From Alphaproteobacteria bacterium (GTDB lineage Bacteria > Pseudomonadota > Alphaproteobacteria > Rs-D84), in contig JAGBXO010000003.1 in the NCBI GenBank assembly GCA_017629245.1, positions 1,897-65,896 on the forward strand: a stretch of 64,000 nt of DNA, in the 5' to 3' direction. This document shows, piece by piece, positions 56,141 to 58,573 of the stretch (the stretch's first letter is position 1; each line of letters opens with the position of its first letter). The position numbers were made by a program, and so were the translations under genes. Under the pieces are notes generated by a model. That model had not been told where the DNA came from. It saw only the letters and a list, made by a program, of their open reading frames with translations, and did not search any database.

Positions 56141-58573
56141 TCAGAACATTGGCGGGAAACAGTCGCCACCGGCCTCGGGGCAACAGTTGAAGCCTTGTTC
56201 GCCCATATCGGTATATATTTCCCCGGTACAGCATCCGTTTGCATCAGGTTCCGTCCCATCCAGACACAGTAACACCTCTGCTGCGGCCTCTGGTGCGGCC
56301 TCTGGCGCAGATGCGTACGGATTTTGCACCGTACCATCTTCGTTATACTGAACCCCCAGAATTTGTTCTTTAAATTCCTGAGAATCTGGTCCCCCCAGTT
56401 CCTGAACTTTGTTATCGTATTGTTGTTTTTGGTCTGCCTGATAAGCCTTGAATTGCAAATCTTTCTTTGATTCATAATTCAACGAGTCGCACCATAGCTT
56501 CAATGTAGAATATGAATATCCGCCACAGGTATTTAATTTCCCTGTTCCGGCACCAGAACACGCTGTTTTTACTCTCCACAGACCGTTGTCAGGATCCCGT
56601 TCGCAATGTTCCTGTGCCTGGAATTGGCGCGACTGTCCAACCCAACTGCTGTCGTCTGCCGCATATAATCCCATATCTGATTCTTGTATTGTCCGTCTTT
56701 TATCATCACTAAATTCTGCAACGGCGCATTTTTTTCCTGCGTTTTCACTATCTTTTGCCCCACAGGTAATTTGTAAATCAACTGGTGAATAAACGGTAAT
56801 GCGTGTGCCGGCCGCAATTGTAAATGGCGGAATGGTATTGTCCATCATATCAACCATTAATTTTTGCGCAACCTGATTCCATGCGGTAATAATTTCATTC
56901 TTGGCCAGTTCAGATGAACGCATTGTCCCACTTTGTACAACCGTGTTATTATCCAAATCAATCTGATTAACAAACGCATCTGCCACCGGATTAATCAGAT
57001 TAATTGCCGCCGGCACAAATGCGGTCAGCATTGGCATAAAGAATTGTTCCAGGTAATCTGAACTGCCGCGTCCTGGCACGCCCAAACGTCCCTGTGAATC
57101 CGCTGAATATGGGTCGTTGTCTCCGGGAAAGTTAAATTCTACACCGTCTGGACGAATAAATTGGTACCACTTTACCTGCATGCGACCAATTGTTTTATAT
57201 GGTCCTGGAACCTCGCCATGAACATAACCTAACAACAGTGTACCTGTTGGAATAATAACTGTGCGACCGTTATCAGAATAGACATTTCTGTCCACTGTTG
57301 CGCGTACGGGAACGCCCATCTGCAACGCGTCAATATCTGCGCGTATATCAGAAACAATTGTCGCAGGAATCGGTTTAAATTGGCGCAGGATAAATGTTCT
57401 GTCGTATGGCGCGCTAGATGTGACGACATTGCCATCGGTTGTCCCAAAAATAACACCGGTTTCCTTGGCTTTTTCTATCCCATTAAACACCGAAGACATC
57501 CCGCCTGTGCTAAACCGGCCCATCCCGCCAGACGTGCTGCCACCGGGCGCATCATTCTGTGATGCGCGATGAACAGGCTTGATTGCCGGCACATTTGACA
57601 ATTCTGGCAGTTTGCCTGATGTTATAACTGATGTACCAATATGATCGGCGTCCGTTCCGATTTTTTTCCCGCTGTCATCTGTAATAATGCCATTGTCTGG
57701 ATTATATTTTCCGGCCGGTTTACTGCAGTCTTCGTCATCAAATGTATGAAAATAGTACGCACCACCACTGGGTTTAATCCATCCAATTTGACGACCAGAA
57801 TTATTGTATCCTGGGAATGCAAAGTCTGAACATCCATCCGGTATAATAATTTCCGGTTCTTGGCGCGCTGCGACAGATTTTTTCGGCATTTCAACCGGCG
57901 GGGCCAGTGCGGTCACCTCGCTAATGATTTCTTCCTGAATGGTTTCTGGCTCTTCTTCAAATATTTCCTCTTCAATTTCTTCTTCTTCAACCGGTGCCGG
58001 CTCAGGTTCTGGCTCTGGCACGACGACTGGCTTTGGTGCCGGGGCAGGCATTGGCTTTTCTTCTATCACTGGTGCCACCGCCCCCAGGGTCAGAACAATT
58101 TTGGCTTTCTGTGCCATATCTTCTGATTGATTTGCCTGGTGCCAAACAATTGTCACCGACGTTTGTTTCGTTGGCATTACACTGCTTGGGGCATATGTTG
58201 CAATAATTTCGCATCCTGTTTTTTTATCCAGACGCTTGGTCGCCTTGCATGTATCTTTGACATCAAATCCGCTAATTTCTTCATGTCTTTGAACATTATC
58301 AATTATAACCGGGGCGGTCGCAGAAATAGTAATTTTTTCTGTCTTTTTTTCGCCAACAATCACATCGGCCCAGTTAACCATATCGGGATTTATCTTCAAT
58401 TCCGCCGCCGCTGCATTTGTCGCTGCAATTTCTTTGTTATTGTCGCCCTTGCCACCAACCAGTATCGTCAGTAATATCAGCACGACAACAAATGCCGCCC
58501 CCAGCAACAGCCATTGAATATGGCGTGGCATATTTTTACGCATTTCTGAAATTTGCTGTTTAAATTTACTCAT
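56141..58573 (-). CDS. virB10: type IV secretion system protein VirB10/TrbI with a Pro/Glu-rich spacer and a roughly 250-aa Cys-rich C-terminal extension
   Basis: Start at MSKFKQQ (cat at 58571-58573). TM 'WLLLGAAFVVVLILLTILVG'. 'PAPAPKPVVVPEPEPEPAPVEEEEIEEE' spacer. Conserved VirB10 core 'RTFILRQFKPIPATIVSDIRADIDAL...VIIPTGTLLLGYV...VKWYQFIRPDGVEF...LEQFFMPMLTAF'. The core is then followed by about 250 aa containing 17 Cys, ending 'NGCCTGEIYTDMGEQGFNCCPEAGGDCFPPMF'. Confidence 0.8.
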   Translation of the reverse strand: MSKFKQQISEMRKNMPRHIQWLLLGAAFVVVLILLTILVGGKGDNNKEIAATNAAAAELKINPDMVNWADVIVGEKKTEKITISATAPVIIDNVQRHEEISGFDVKDTCKATKRLDKKTGCEIIATYAPSSVMPTKQTSVTIVWHQANQSEDMAQKAKIVLTLGAVAPVIEEKPMPAPAPKPVVVPEPEPEPAPVEEEEIEEEIFEEEPETIQEEIISEVTALAPPVEMPKKSVAARQEPEIIIPDGCSDFAFPGYNNSGRQIGWIKPSGGAYYFHTFDDEDCSKPAGKYNPDNGIITDDSGKKIGTDADHIGTSVITSGKLPELSNVPAIKPVHRASQNDAPGGSTSGGMGRFSTGGMSSVFNGIEKAKETGVIFGTTDGNVVTSSAPYDRTFILRQFKPIPATIVSDIRADIDALQMGVPVRATVDRNVYSDNGRTVIIPTGTLLLGYVHGEVPGPYKTIGRMQVKWYQFIRPDGVEFNFPGDNDPYSADSQGRLGVPGRGSSDYLEQFFMPMLTAFVPAAINLINPVADAFVNQIDLDNNTVVQSGTMRSSELAKNEIITAWNQVAQKLMVDMMDNTIPPFTIAAGTRITVYSPVDLQITCGAKDSENAGKKCAVAEFSDDKRRTIQESDMGLYAADDSSWVGQSRQFQAQEHCERDPDNGLWRVKTACSGAGTGKLNTCGGYSYSTLKLWCDSLNYESKKDLQFKAYQADQKQQYDNKVQELGGPDSQEFKEQILGVQYNEDGTVQNPYASAPEAAPEAAAEVLLCLDGTEPDANGCCTGEIYTDMGEQGFNCCPEAGGDCFPPMF

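What the first reader, a model, noticed from the sequence alone, without database searches (positions are those of the whole stretch)
56141..58573. VirB10 with a roughly 250-aa Cys-rich C-terminal extension beyond the conserved core, plus an acidic PE-rich spacer
After the last conserved VirB10 block (...PMLTAFVPAAINLINPV...) the protein continues for about 250 aa with 17 cysteines, including paired CC motifs (GCCTGE..., FNCCPEAGGDC). Canonical VirB10 proteins end shortly after the beta-barrel. An extra disulfide-rich module on the outer-membrane-spanning subunit could form a surface or periplasmic cap, or a receptor-binding domain. I know of no described equivalent.
Basis: partly seen in the sequence, partly recalled or inferred. 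Interest (0 to 1): 0.7.

Follow-up and report, generated by a model that had tools for sequence, protein, structure and literature searches.

The report
VirB10 with conserved cysteine-rich C-terminal tail
A type IV secretion channel protein (VirB10) of small-genome gut Alphaproteobacteria (Candidatus Enterousia and relatives) carries a real, conserved ~207-residue cysteine-rich tail, and its last ~43 residues are an undescribed six-cysteine mini-domain that other envelope proteins of the same bacteria also carry at their C-terminus.

Summary
The gene (56141..58573, minus strand, 810 aa) is a bona fide VirB10/TrbI in a chromosomal virB8-virB9-virB10 operon. It ends at a stop codon followed directly by a terminator. 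The extension is therefore ~207 aa with 12 cysteines, not ~250 aa with 17.

The tail is present at full length in at least 117 of the 120 best homologues and in 80 species-level genomes. These are Candidatus Enterousia and other uncultured gut Alphaproteobacteria. Ten cysteines are invariant and two are lost together.

The tail has three parts: a variable Cys loop, a helical module, and a terminal 43-aa C-x10-CC-x14-CC-x6-C-FPP mini-domain as conserved as the core. It matches no Pfam or NCBIfam family and no PDB fold. Sampled plasmid VirB10s end 5-21 aa after the core.

The mini-domain also ends three unrelated kinds of predicted extracytoplasmic proteins that are not encoded next to T4SS genes. 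My best reading is a periplasmic docking or anchoring add-on to the outer-membrane core complex, not a surface receptor. That mechanism is inferred. Verdict: new variant of a known kind, moderate interest.

The parts
56141..58573 (-). Complete virB10 homologue, 810 aa plus TGA stop (56141-56143).
   Evidence: ORF and translation. Pfam TrbI 67 bits. 100% identical to a protein of an 'Alphaproteobacteria bacterium' MAG, locus tag J6R52_01300.
58454..58573 (-). Residues 1-40: short cytoplasmic N-terminus and a single transmembrane helix (about residues 17-39).
   Evidence: Hydropathy scan. AF2 helix 17-39. 73% column identity.
58076..58399 (-). Residues 59-166: periplasmic Ig-like beta-sandwich of the PapD/ASH kind. 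Canonical VirB10 lacks it.
   Evidence: AF2 pLDDT 83-90. Foldseek hits to PapD-like/ASH domains of CEP192 and HYDIN and to Caf1M, E about 1e-5 to 3e-4. Weak NCBIfam choice-of-anchor D hit.
57845..58078 (-). Residues 166-243: acidic Pro/Glu-rich spacer, predicted disordered.
   Evidence: 22 E and 16 P in 78 residues, net charge -17. pLDDT 33-48. Composition is conserved but sequence is not (49% column identity).
57644..57844 (-). Residues 244-310: small beta-rich domain with invariant C248 and C283.
   Evidence: 81% column identity. pLDDT 72-83. No family hit.
57422..57643 (-). Residues 311-384: Gly/Ser-rich linker, predicted disordered.
   Evidence: pLDDT below 50. 51% column identity.
56765..57421 (-). 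Residues 385-603: VirB10 beta-barrel core. It includes the two-helix antenna (residues 506-577, window 56843-57058).
   Evidence: Pfam and NCBIfam coordinates. 88% column identity. Foldseek matches to X. citri VirB10 6gyb_C (1e-8), TrwE 7o3j_A, CagY, TraF 3jqo, ComB10 and TraB.
56654..56764 (-). Residues 604-640: start of the tail. It holds the C604...C616 loop and a variable stretch with many indels.
   Evidence: C604 is invariant and C616 is present in 78 of 84. Alignment with many indels. pLDDT 50-65.
56306..56653 (-). Residues 641-756: tail module A. It is a compact, mostly helical module with the SW-GQ-R-F motif and four cysteines: C657 and C695 (invariant), C672 and C683 (lost together).
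56270..56305 (-). Residues 757-768: short Ala/Pro/Glu linker inside the tail.
   Evidence: pLDDT below 50. Variable sequence.
56144..56269 (-). Residues 769-810: terminal six-cysteine mini-domain, C-x10-CC-x14-CC-x6-C-FPP-x2-COOH. The model shows two beta-hairpins.
   Evidence: 85% column identity and all six Cys invariant in 84 of 84. Motif present in 117 of 120 best homologues, and it ends exactly 2 residues before the C-terminus in 112. pLDDT about 77-84. hhalign to the small secreted family: probability 99.6%, E 1.2e-23, 43 columns.
56118..56135 (-). Intrinsic terminator hairpin (ACCCGCCAATTGGCGGGT followed by a T-run), 5 nt after the stop.
   Evidence: Sequence and terminator scan.
58590..60116 (-). 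virB9 homologue (508 aa) with its own ~215-aa C-terminal extension. The extension ends in a SPOR-like domain. Same operon.
   Evidence: Pfam CagX 85 bits. SPOR hit E 0.0023, below the cut-off. Conserved at full length in 78 of 78 loci.
60138..60902 (-). virB8 homologue, first gene of the operon.
   Evidence: Pfam VirB8 30.9 bits against a cut-off of 23.2. Found in 75 loci.

Best explanation
Shown. This is a genuine chromosomal VirB10 of a divergent type IV secretion system in Candidatus Enterousia-like gut Alphaproteobacteria. Those bacteria belong to order Rs-D84 and have genomes of about 0.75-1 Mb. After the last barrel strand the protein continues for ~207 residues under strong constraint. 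The tail has a Cys-bounded variable loop, a compact helical module A stapled by two Cys pairs, a short flexible linker, and a terminal 43-residue six-cysteine mini-domain that always ends the protein. That mini-domain is a separate evolutionary module. It also ends three unrelated kinds of predicted extracytoplasmic proteins of the same bacteria.

Inferred. The tail stays on the periplasmic side of the outer membrane. There, its 14 or so copies per machine act as a built-in accessory layer of the outer-membrane core complex. Module A adds mass next to the O-layer. The terminal mini-domain, probably folded by three disulfides, docks on a ligand or partner common to the envelope of these bacteria, or on other copies of itself. 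This would tether and stabilise the channel. It parallels the way expanded T4SSs (Cag, Dot/Icm) and the X. citri VirB7 N0 domain add extra rings. It also parallels VirB9 in the same operon, which carries a SPOR-like (peptidoglycan-binding type) domain.
For: - The protein is a real gene with a real end: continuous ORF, RBS and ATG 17 nt after virB9, and a stop followed by a terminator.
- VirB10 identity rests on sequence, fold and operon context.
- The tail is conserved in 117 of 120 best homologues (52-94% identity, from independent assemblies) and in 80 species-representative genomes.
- Tail length is held at 185-220 aa with 8-12 Cys even in divergent cluster representatives.
- The mini-domain is as conserved as the core (85% against 88% column identity).
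- Paired loss of C672 and C683 fits a structural pair.
- Module A and the mini-domain fold with confidence and are separated by low-confidence linkers.
- The mini-domain is modular. Homology to the small secreted family is confined to 43 columns.
- Among the 150 best cluster representatives it occurs in 35 VirB10s, 24 bitopic inner-membrane proteins, 50 small signal-peptide proteins and 41 tiny or other proteins. In those proteins that lack the VirB10 core, its last copy ends 0-7 residues from the C-terminus in all but two.
- The bitopic proteins have a cytoplasmic coiled coil, one TM helix, a long P/E-rich linker and then the mini-domain.
- Every carrier puts the mini-domain outside the cytoplasm, and the inner-membrane-anchored carriers argue for a periplasmic site of action.
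- The sampled carriers are encoded next to a MacB/Lol-type ABC transporter operon or next to gcrA, not next to T4SS genes.
- VirB9 in the same operon has a conserved SPOR-like extension, so both core-complex subunits are expanded.
- In solved complexes VirB10 barrels line the O-layer below the membrane, and only the inter-helix antenna loop is extracellular (PMC9371333; PMC12857230).
Against: - No experiment or complex model places the tail. The structure tool gives a monomer without coordinates, so neither the direction in which the chain leaves the barrel nor the Cys-Cys distances were checked.
- No ligand or partner was identified.
- Some tiny carriers hold the mini-domain only a few residues from a membrane anchor or signal peptide. 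That fits poorly with a partner in the outer membrane or the cell wall.
- These bacteria are reported to lack respiratory chains (PMC12306168), and I did not check whether they have DsbA/DsbB-type oxidases. Disulfide formation is therefore assumed.
- Fourteen copies of 23 kDa may not fit beside or inside a canonical O-layer.
Confidence: 0.45

Rival explanations
1. Surface-exposed cap or receptor-binding domain. The tail passes to the cell surface and mediates contact with a target or host cell.
For: - Disulfide-rich mini-domains are typical of extracellular proteins.
- These bacteria have reduced genomes and probably depend on partners (PMC12306168), so a contact function would be useful.
- CagY gives a precedent for a Cys-rich accessory region of a VirB10 homologue reported on the surface (PMC2581425).
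- Some carriers of the mini-domain are small signal-peptide proteins that could be secreted.
Against: - The tail follows the last barrel strands, not the antenna loop, which is the only part known to be exposed (PMC9371333).
- The same mini-domain ends bitopic inner-membrane proteins and tiny membrane-anchored proteins.
- The tail has no transmembrane or amphipathic beta segment.
- The extreme sequence conservation of the mini-domain (85% column identity) is unlike exposed, host-facing surfaces, which usually diversify.
Confidence: 0.12
2. Built-in VirB7 substitute. The terminal mini-domain, about the size of VirB7, reaches round on its linker and clamps the VirB9 C-terminal domain, replacing the missing lipoprotein.
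For: - No virB7-like small lipoprotein gene lies in or next to the virB8-virB9-virB10 operon.
- The mini-domain is about 43 aa, comparable with the ~55-aa VirB7 of minimized systems (PMC9371333).
- It sits on a flexible linker.
Against: - The mini-domain is shared with many proteins unrelated to the T4SS, which a dedicated VirB9 clamp would not be.
- A virB7 gene could lie elsewhere in the genome, since the other T4SS genes are not in this operon.
- There is no sequence similarity to any VirB7 family.
Confidence: 0.1
3. Metal-binding or redox-sensing module. The cysteines stay reduced and bind a metal or sense redox state, so that envelope conditions gate the channel.
For: - Two CC pairs and two single Cys are invariant.
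- The organisms are anaerobic gut bacteria reported to lack respiratory chains (PMC12306168), which raises the question of how periplasmic disulfides would form.
Against: - There is no CxxC or His-containing metal motif.
- The spacing with adjacent CC pairs and two beta-hairpins is typical of disulfide-knotted mini-proteins. The only Foldseek hits for this part were granulins, and those are not significant (E = 4.9).
- Module A's Cys pair is lost as a pair, which fits a disulfide staple.
Confidence: 0.1
4. C-terminal sorting, processing or release signal. The mini-domain directs export, attachment or cleavage of its carrier, so the mature VirB10 may lack it.
For: - Its last copy is almost always at the extreme C-terminus of its carrier. 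In VirB10 it ends exactly 2 residues before the end in 112 of 117 cases.
- It occurs on many unrelated carriers, as sorting signals do.
Against: - It has no hydrophobic helix or basic tail like the PEP-CTERM, GlyGly-CTERM or LPXTG signals.
- It occurs in 2-3 tandem copies with internal positions in some proteins.
- It is a confidently folded Cys-rich domain rather than a peptide signal.
- No dedicated sorting enzyme was seen next to the sampled carriers.
Confidence: 0.1
5. Artefact: a missed stop or frameshift fused a downstream gene to virB10.
For: None beyond the unusual length.
Against: - The same continuous architecture appears in more than 117 homologues from independent assemblies and in 80 genomes.
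- Tail length is constant.
- The stop codon is followed by a terminator.
- The tail resembles no known downstream T4SS gene.
Confidence: 0.01

Closest known systems
Canonical VirB10/TrbI of minimized T4SSs (A. tumefaciens VirB10, pKM101 TraF, R388 TrwE, X. citri VirB10)
   Same: - Bitopic inner-membrane anchor.
- Pro-rich spacer.
- C-terminal beta-barrel with a two-helix antenna.
- Encoded after virB8 and virB9.
   Different: - The canonical proteins are about 375-460 aa and end 5-21 aa after the barrel in the four plasmid examples checked.
- In those plasmids virB11 follows directly.
- Here there are ~207 extra C-terminal residues, plus an Ig-like domain and a small beta domain on the N-terminal side.
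- The operon stops after virB10.
- The sequence is divergent: NCBIfam VirB10 equivalog 62 bits against a cut-off of 220.
H. pylori CagY (expanded VirB10 homologue)
   Same: - A VirB10 homologue enlarged by a lineage-specific accessory region with regularly spaced cysteines thought to form disulfides (PMC2581425).
- Best PDB sequence match of the core.
   Different: - CagY's extra region is a huge alpha-helical repeat array N-terminal to the VirB10 domain, which itself lies at the C-terminal end of the protein (match at 1686-1809 of 1927).
- Here the Cys-rich part is C-terminal, non-repetitive and unrelated in sequence.
X. citri VirB7 with a C-terminal N0 domain; accessory subunits of the Cag and Dot/Icm core complexes
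   Same: - A core complex enlarged by extra periplasmic domains or rings beyond the VirB7/9/10 minimum (PMC6536674, PMC9371333).
- This is the functional analogy I propose.
   Different: - In those systems the additions sit on VirB7 or are separate proteins.
- Here they are fused to the C-termini of VirB10 and VirB9.
- There is no sequence or fold relation.
Granulin- or knottin-type disulfide-rich mini-proteins
   Same: - About 40 residues.
- Adjacent CC pairs.
- Stacked beta-hairpins in the model.
- Granulin A and C are the top Foldseek rows for this part.
   Different: - The matches are not significant (E 4.9-7.3, TM-scores of 0.26 or less for the full granulin chains).
- The Cys spacing differs.
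- Treat this as a resemblance only.
TonB-like envelope-spanning proteins (membrane anchor, Pro/Glu-rich spacer, small C-terminal docking domain)
   Same: - The bitopic carriers of the mini-domain, and VirB10 itself, share this layout.
- This supports a docking role for the terminal module. The comparison rests on established knowledge of TonB.
   Different: - No sequence or fold similarity to the TonB C-terminal domain.
- No Pfam TonB hit.

Membership tests
VirB10/TrbI (Pfam PF03743) | TrbI domain scoring above the Pfam gathering cut-off | tested here: met
   67 bits against a cut-off of 35, residues 402-596, profile positions 8-182 of 188.
VirB10/TrbI (Pfam PF03743) | Beta-barrel fold with a two-helix antenna, as in solved VirB10 homologues | tested here: met
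   The AF2 model shows barrel strands and helices 506-538 and 553-577. Foldseek matches 6gyb_C at 1e-8, then 7o3j_A, 6x6k_AY, 3jqo, 2bhv and 7spc. The antenna helices themselves have low pLDDT in the monomer model.
VirB10/TrbI (Pfam PF03743) | Single N-terminal transmembrane helix followed by a Pro-rich region | tested here: met
   TM helix at about residues 17-39. P/E-rich spacer at 166-243.
VirB10/TrbI (Pfam PF03743) | Encoded with virB8 and virB9 | tested here: met
   VirB8 (PF04335) and CagX/VirB9 (PF03524) lie directly upstream on the same strand. The arrangement is conserved in at least 75 loci.
NCBIfam NF038091 T4SS_VirB10 (equivalog domain) | Score above the curated cut-off of 220 bits | tested here: not met
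   62.3 bits. The protein is a divergent family member, not an equivalog of the Agrobacterium type.
Complete type IV secretion system | VirB4 ATPase and further subunits (VirB2, 3, 6, 11, D4) present in the genome | not testable with these tools
   Only 64 kb of the genome is available, and no other T4SS family was found in it. Four tandem polytopic membrane proteins at 9542-14800 are unassigned.
Granulin / knottin disulfide-rich mini-proteins | Significant fold or sequence match and the family's Cys spacing | tested here: not met
Known C-terminal sorting signals (PEP-CTERM, GlyGly-CTERM, LPXTG, T9SS CTD) | Signature motif plus a C-terminal hydrophobic helix and basic tail, or an ~80-aa beta-sandwich CTD | tested here: not met
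   The sequence ends ...GGDCFPPMF with no hydrophobic helix. No NCBIfam or Pfam sorting-domain hit.
SPOR domain (PF05036) on the neighbouring VirB9 | Score above the Pfam cut-off of 21 bits | tested here: inconclusive
   18.6 bits, E 0.0023, covering only profile positions 40-76. The region is conserved in 78 of 78 loci.

The most novel reading that the evidence does not exclude
The 43-residue C-terminal six-cysteine module is a new class of envelope-targeting or assembly domain peculiar to Rs-D84/Enterousia bacteria. Through it the T4SS outer-membrane complex would be physically coupled to a lineage-specific envelope structure, or to the other carriers: small secreted proteins and a coiled-coil inner-membrane protein. 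With module A it would form a ring or cap with no counterpart in any solved T4SS, possibly taking part in contact with the partner cells on which these reduced-genome bacteria depend.
Probability: 0.2. Interest if true: 0.7.

Novelty: new variant of a known kind. Interest (0 to 1): 0.5.

Why it matters
VirB10 is the only T4SS subunit that spans both membranes, and it forms the outer-membrane pore. All solved examples end at the barrel. A conserved 23-kDa C-terminal appendage on VirB10, together with a SPOR-like appendage on VirB9, would mean a differently built core complex. It occurs in a widespread, uncultured group of gut bacteria with about 1-Mb genomes whose way of life is unknown.

The terminal mini-domain is an unannotated domain family. 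It had 254 hits at E <= 0.001 among 50%-identity cluster representatives. It gives a handle for finding envelope proteins that work together in these organisms. It is also small enough (43 aa) for direct biochemical and structural study.

Tried and rejected
- Fused ORF or missed stop: rejected on conservation and on the terminator.
- Known domain in the tail: Pfam up to E = 5, NCBIfam up to E = 1 and PDB sequence search up to E = 10 gave nothing meaningful.
- Other mini-domain genes near virB10: none in the 64-kb window and none within 8 kb of virB10 in 80 loci.
- T4SS linkage of the other carriers: rejected for the two families sampled. The small secreted family lies at the end of a MacB/FtsX-ABC operon, and the bitopic family lies next to gcrA.
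- Phage origin: no confirmed match in viral contigs.
- Homology between tail module A and the N-domain of the small secreted family: hhalign aligns only the mini-domain.
- VirB6 identity of four tandem membrane proteins at 9542-14800: no Pfam support even at E = 5. Left open.
- Literature: no paper joins Rs-D84 with type IV secretion. The only 'C-terminal extension' papers found concern X. citri T4SS reviews.
- dN/dS by region: not attempted, because synonymous sites are saturated at 50-75% protein identity.
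Full report
**1. The observation**

The minus strand carries one uninterrupted ORF. The ORF list gives 56141..58756 from a TTG. The likely start is the ATG at 58573. It lies 17 nt after the virB9 stop and behind GGGGGA, and it gives the N-terminus MSKFKQQ that all homologues share. The product is 810 aa.

Pfam places a TrbI/VirB10 domain at residues 402-596 (67 bits, cut-off 35). NCBIfam VirB10 and ComB10 models cover 391-602 but score below their equivalog cut-offs.

These helices (506-538 and 553-577) form the VirB10 antenna in the structure model. 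Two more barrel strands follow, at 590-603. The extension is therefore residues 604-810: 207 residues, not about 250.

The tail contains 12 cysteines, not 17. The whole protein has 16. Against a cysteine frequency of 0.65% in 20 other window proteins, 12 in 208 residues has P = 1.7e-8.

The PE-rich acidic spacer is real. Residues 166-243 hold 22 E and 16 P and have a net charge of -17.

**2. It is not an artefact**

The TGA stop is followed after 5 nt by a GC-rich hairpin and a T-run.

The exact protein is on record from an 'Alphaproteobacteria bacterium' MAG, locus tag J6R52_01300. The 120 best database homologues are 776-837 aa where complete and 51-93% identical, and nearly all cover 100% of the query. 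In 117 of them the terminal motif GCC-GE-[YF]TD-G-GFNCCP-GGDCFPP is intact. In 112 it ends exactly two residues before the C-terminus.

A scan of one genome per species found 346 stretches encoding a relative. The 80 best loci all carry the full tail on VirB10. In divergent 50%-identity cluster representatives the tail is 185-220 aa with 8-12 cysteines.

**3. Who carries it**

The loci come from MAGs named Candidatus Enterousia, uncultured Alphaproteobacteria or 'uncultured Rickettsiales'. The samples are human, ruminant and other animal guts. The literature also reports Candidatus Enterousia from chicken and horse guts.

Enterousia belongs to the uncultured order Rs-D84. Its genomes are about 0.75-1.0 Mb. 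It is reported to lack a TCA cycle, a respiratory chain and flagella (PMC12306168).

The neighbourhood in the window is chromosomal housekeeping: secE-nusG-rplKAJ on one side and yidC and lspA on the other. The order virB8-virB9-virB10 followed by a 114-aa ORF is conserved in at least 75 loci.

The operon ends after virB10. In the four plasmid operons sampled, virB11 follows directly.

**4. Anatomy**

The full-length model has mean pLDDT 60, but individual domains are more confident. In order it shows:
- a TM helix at 17-39;
- an Ig-like beta-sandwich at 59-166 (pLDDT 83-90), with Foldseek hits to PapD/ASH-like domains;
- the disordered PE spacer;
- a small beta domain at 250-310 with invariant C248 and C283;
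- a disordered Gly/Ser-rich linker;
- the VirB10 barrel with its antenna, with Foldseek matches to X. citri VirB10, TrwE, CagY, TraF, ComB10 and TraB;
- the tail.

The tail was also modelled alone with 84 sequences (mean pLDDT 75.6). It has four parts:
- a poorly predicted start (604-640) with the C604...C616 loop and many indels;
- module A (about 641-756, pLDDT 76-93), with two short strands and three helices;
- a low-confidence linker (757-768);
- a terminal mini-domain (769-810, pLDDT about 77-84) with two beta-hairpins.

Column identity is 47-53% in module A and its surroundings. It is 85% in the mini-domain, against 88% in the core.

Ten tail cysteines are invariant or nearly so. C672 and C683 are present together in 67 sequences, absent together in 10 and discordant in 7 of 84. 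This is the pattern expected of a bonded pair.

**5. Nothing known matches the tail**

- Pfam (to E = 5) and NCBIfam (to E = 1) give no family.
- PDB sequence search gives only a chance hit at E = 0.66.
- Foldseek against PDB gives no E below 4.9. The top rows are granulins, aligned to the terminal hairpins.
- The AFDB library was not available.

**6. Are such tails common in the family?**

They are not, outside this clade, as far as I could test.

Solved homologues end at or near the barrel. A profile of the core aligns positions 6-139 of 220 to CagY residues 1686-1809 of 1927. It aligns positions 44-101 to TrwE residues 233-287 of 395.

The core finds 523 plasmid VirB10/TrbI genes by tblastn. 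I inspected four taken across the ranking: Agrobacterium, Acinetobacter, Xanthomonas and Mesorhizobium. Their CDS ends 21, 5, 20 and 21 aa after the position equivalent to residue 603. In the three where the gene is shown complete, VirB9 is 260-270 aa, against 508 aa here.

This is a sample, not a census.

**7. The unexpected part: the mini-domain is a mobile module**

A profile of the tail was searched against 1.84 billion cluster representatives. It gave 254 hits at E <= 0.001. The full tail occurs only on VirB10. The last ~45 profile positions also match many other proteins.

The 150 best fall into four groups:
- 35 are VirB10s or fragments of them.
- 24 are 635-852-aa bitopic proteins. They have a cytoplasmic coiled-coil region, one TM helix, a long P/E-rich outside linker and the mini-domain at the end.
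- 50 are 170-325-aa signal-peptide proteins. They have a conserved helical N-domain (R-x2-C ... YR-x2-C) and one to three mini-domains.
- 41 are tiny proteins of 44-134 aa, or otherwise unclassified. Several are just a signal peptide or membrane anchor plus the mini-domain.

Profile-profile comparison confirms that the homology to the small family is confined to 43 columns (probability 99.6%, E 1.2e-23).

In the proteins that lack the VirB10 core, the last copy ends 0-7 residues from the C-terminus in all but two (16 and 28 residues).

The other carriers come from the same kind of MAGs. One lies on a contig of the same length (289,948 bp) as the longest contig recorded for a tailed VirB10. They are not encoded next to T4SS genes. 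The small family closes an operon with a MacB_PCD/FtsX permease and an ABC ATPase. The bitopic family sits beside gcrA.

No second mini-domain gene lies in the window or within 8 kb of virB10 in 80 loci. None was found in viral contigs.

**8. How it most likely works**

The following points are shown:
- The tail is a conserved, folded, Cys-rich addition in two modules.
- Its terminal module is a general extracytoplasmic module of this lineage.
- VirB9 in the same operon also has a conserved C-terminal extension. It has a low-complexity linker and a SPOR-like end (E 0.0023, below the cut-off).

The rest is inferred. In solved systems the VirB10 barrels line the O-layer under the outer membrane, and only the loop between the antenna helices is exposed (PMC9371333, PMC12857230). 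The tail leaves the last barrel strand. Its terminal module also works on inner-membrane-anchored carriers. I therefore place the tail in the periplasm.

I read the tail as a built-in accessory layer of the core complex. The mini-domain would dock on a shared envelope partner or on other copies of itself. Expanded T4SSs offer the analogy, because they add subunits or enlarge VirB7, VirB9 and VirB10 (PMC9371333). The X. citri VirB7 extension, described in PMC6536674 (found), is another parallel.

I give this 0.45. The rivals are:
- a surface cap or receptor module (0.12);
- a cis-acting VirB7 substitute (0.10);
- a metal or redox module (0.10);
- a sorting or processing signal (0.10);
- an artefact (0.01).

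Three weaknesses remain. No partner is known. Disulfide formation is assumed in organisms said to lack respiration. The monomer model gives no geometry for the assembled ring.

**9. Comparison and novelty**

Membership in the VirB10/TrbI family is met on domain score, fold, topology and operon context. The NCBIfam equivalog cut-off is not met, so this is a divergent member.

CagY is the nearest precedent for a Cys-rich accessory region on a VirB10 homologue. Its region is an N-terminal helical repeat array (PMC2581425), unrelated to this tail.

I found no description of a C-terminal VirB10 extension, or of T4SSs in Rs-D84, in the searchable literature.

Verdict: a new variant of a known kind, carrying an undescribed mini-domain family. 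Interest is moderate at 0.5. It would be higher if the tail proves to form a new ring or cap, or if the mini-domain proves to be a new envelope-targeting device.

Noticed in passing
window 58590-60116 (-): VirB9 is 508 aa, against 260-270 aa in sampled plasmid systems. After the CagX domain (residues 52-293) come a Met/Gln/Pro/Thr-rich low-complexity linker and a SPOR-like C-terminal domain with two Cys (Pfam E 0.0023, below the cut-off). It is conserved at full length in 78 of 78 related loci.
   Followed up: partly
window 55500-55844 (-): A 114-aa ORF lies just downstream of the virB10 terminator. It has no TM segment and no Pfam or NCBIfam hit. It is conserved in 77 of 80 related loci (about 66% identity). 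It may be a cytoplasmic partner or regulator of the locus.
   Followed up: partly
window 9542-14800 (-): Four tandem genes encode polytopic membrane proteins (429, 498, 399 and 423 aa, 5-8 predicted TM segments each). Their mutual similarity is only faint (22% identity, E about 0.004) and they have no Pfam hit even at E = 5. The layout recalls tandem VirB6 paralogues of Rickettsiales, but this was not tested.
   Followed up: partly
window 4476-6686 (+): A 736-aa protein has an N-terminal signal or anchor, an Arg/Thr/Ala/Asn-rich low-complexity region and 25 cysteines. It has no Pfam family and no copy of the VirB10 mini-domain. It is another Cys-rich envelope protein in this small genome.
   Followed up: no
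L081 about 5400-10570; L083 about 5055-10663: The small secreted mini-domain family (P0220, P0298) is the last gene of a conserved operon: a 107-aa protein, a ~440-aa unknown, a MacB_PCD/FtsX permease, an ABC ATPase, a 190-296-aa unknown, and then the Cys-rich protein. This may be a Lol- or MacB-type system with lineage-specific partners.
   Followed up: partly
L085 10001-12022; L086 10001-12067: A family of 635-852-aa bitopic proteins (cytoplasmic coiled coil, one TM helix, long P/E-rich periplasmic linker, terminal mini-domain) is encoded directly after gcrA in two distant genomes. One JGI record labels a member as 'CdvB/Snf7-like'. It may be linked to cell division or the envelope.
   Followed up: partly
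window 58076-58399 (-) and 57644-57844 (-): VirB10 also has two N-terminal periplasmic additions that canonical VirB10 lacks. One is a PapD/ASH-like Ig domain (residues 59-166). The other is a highly conserved small beta domain (residues 244-310) with invariant C248 and C283.
   Followed up: partly
window 37918-42903 (+): A TolC-like outer-membrane factor, a 204-aa protein and an AcrB-family RND pump form an efflux operon. This is notable in a genome of this size.
   Followed up: no
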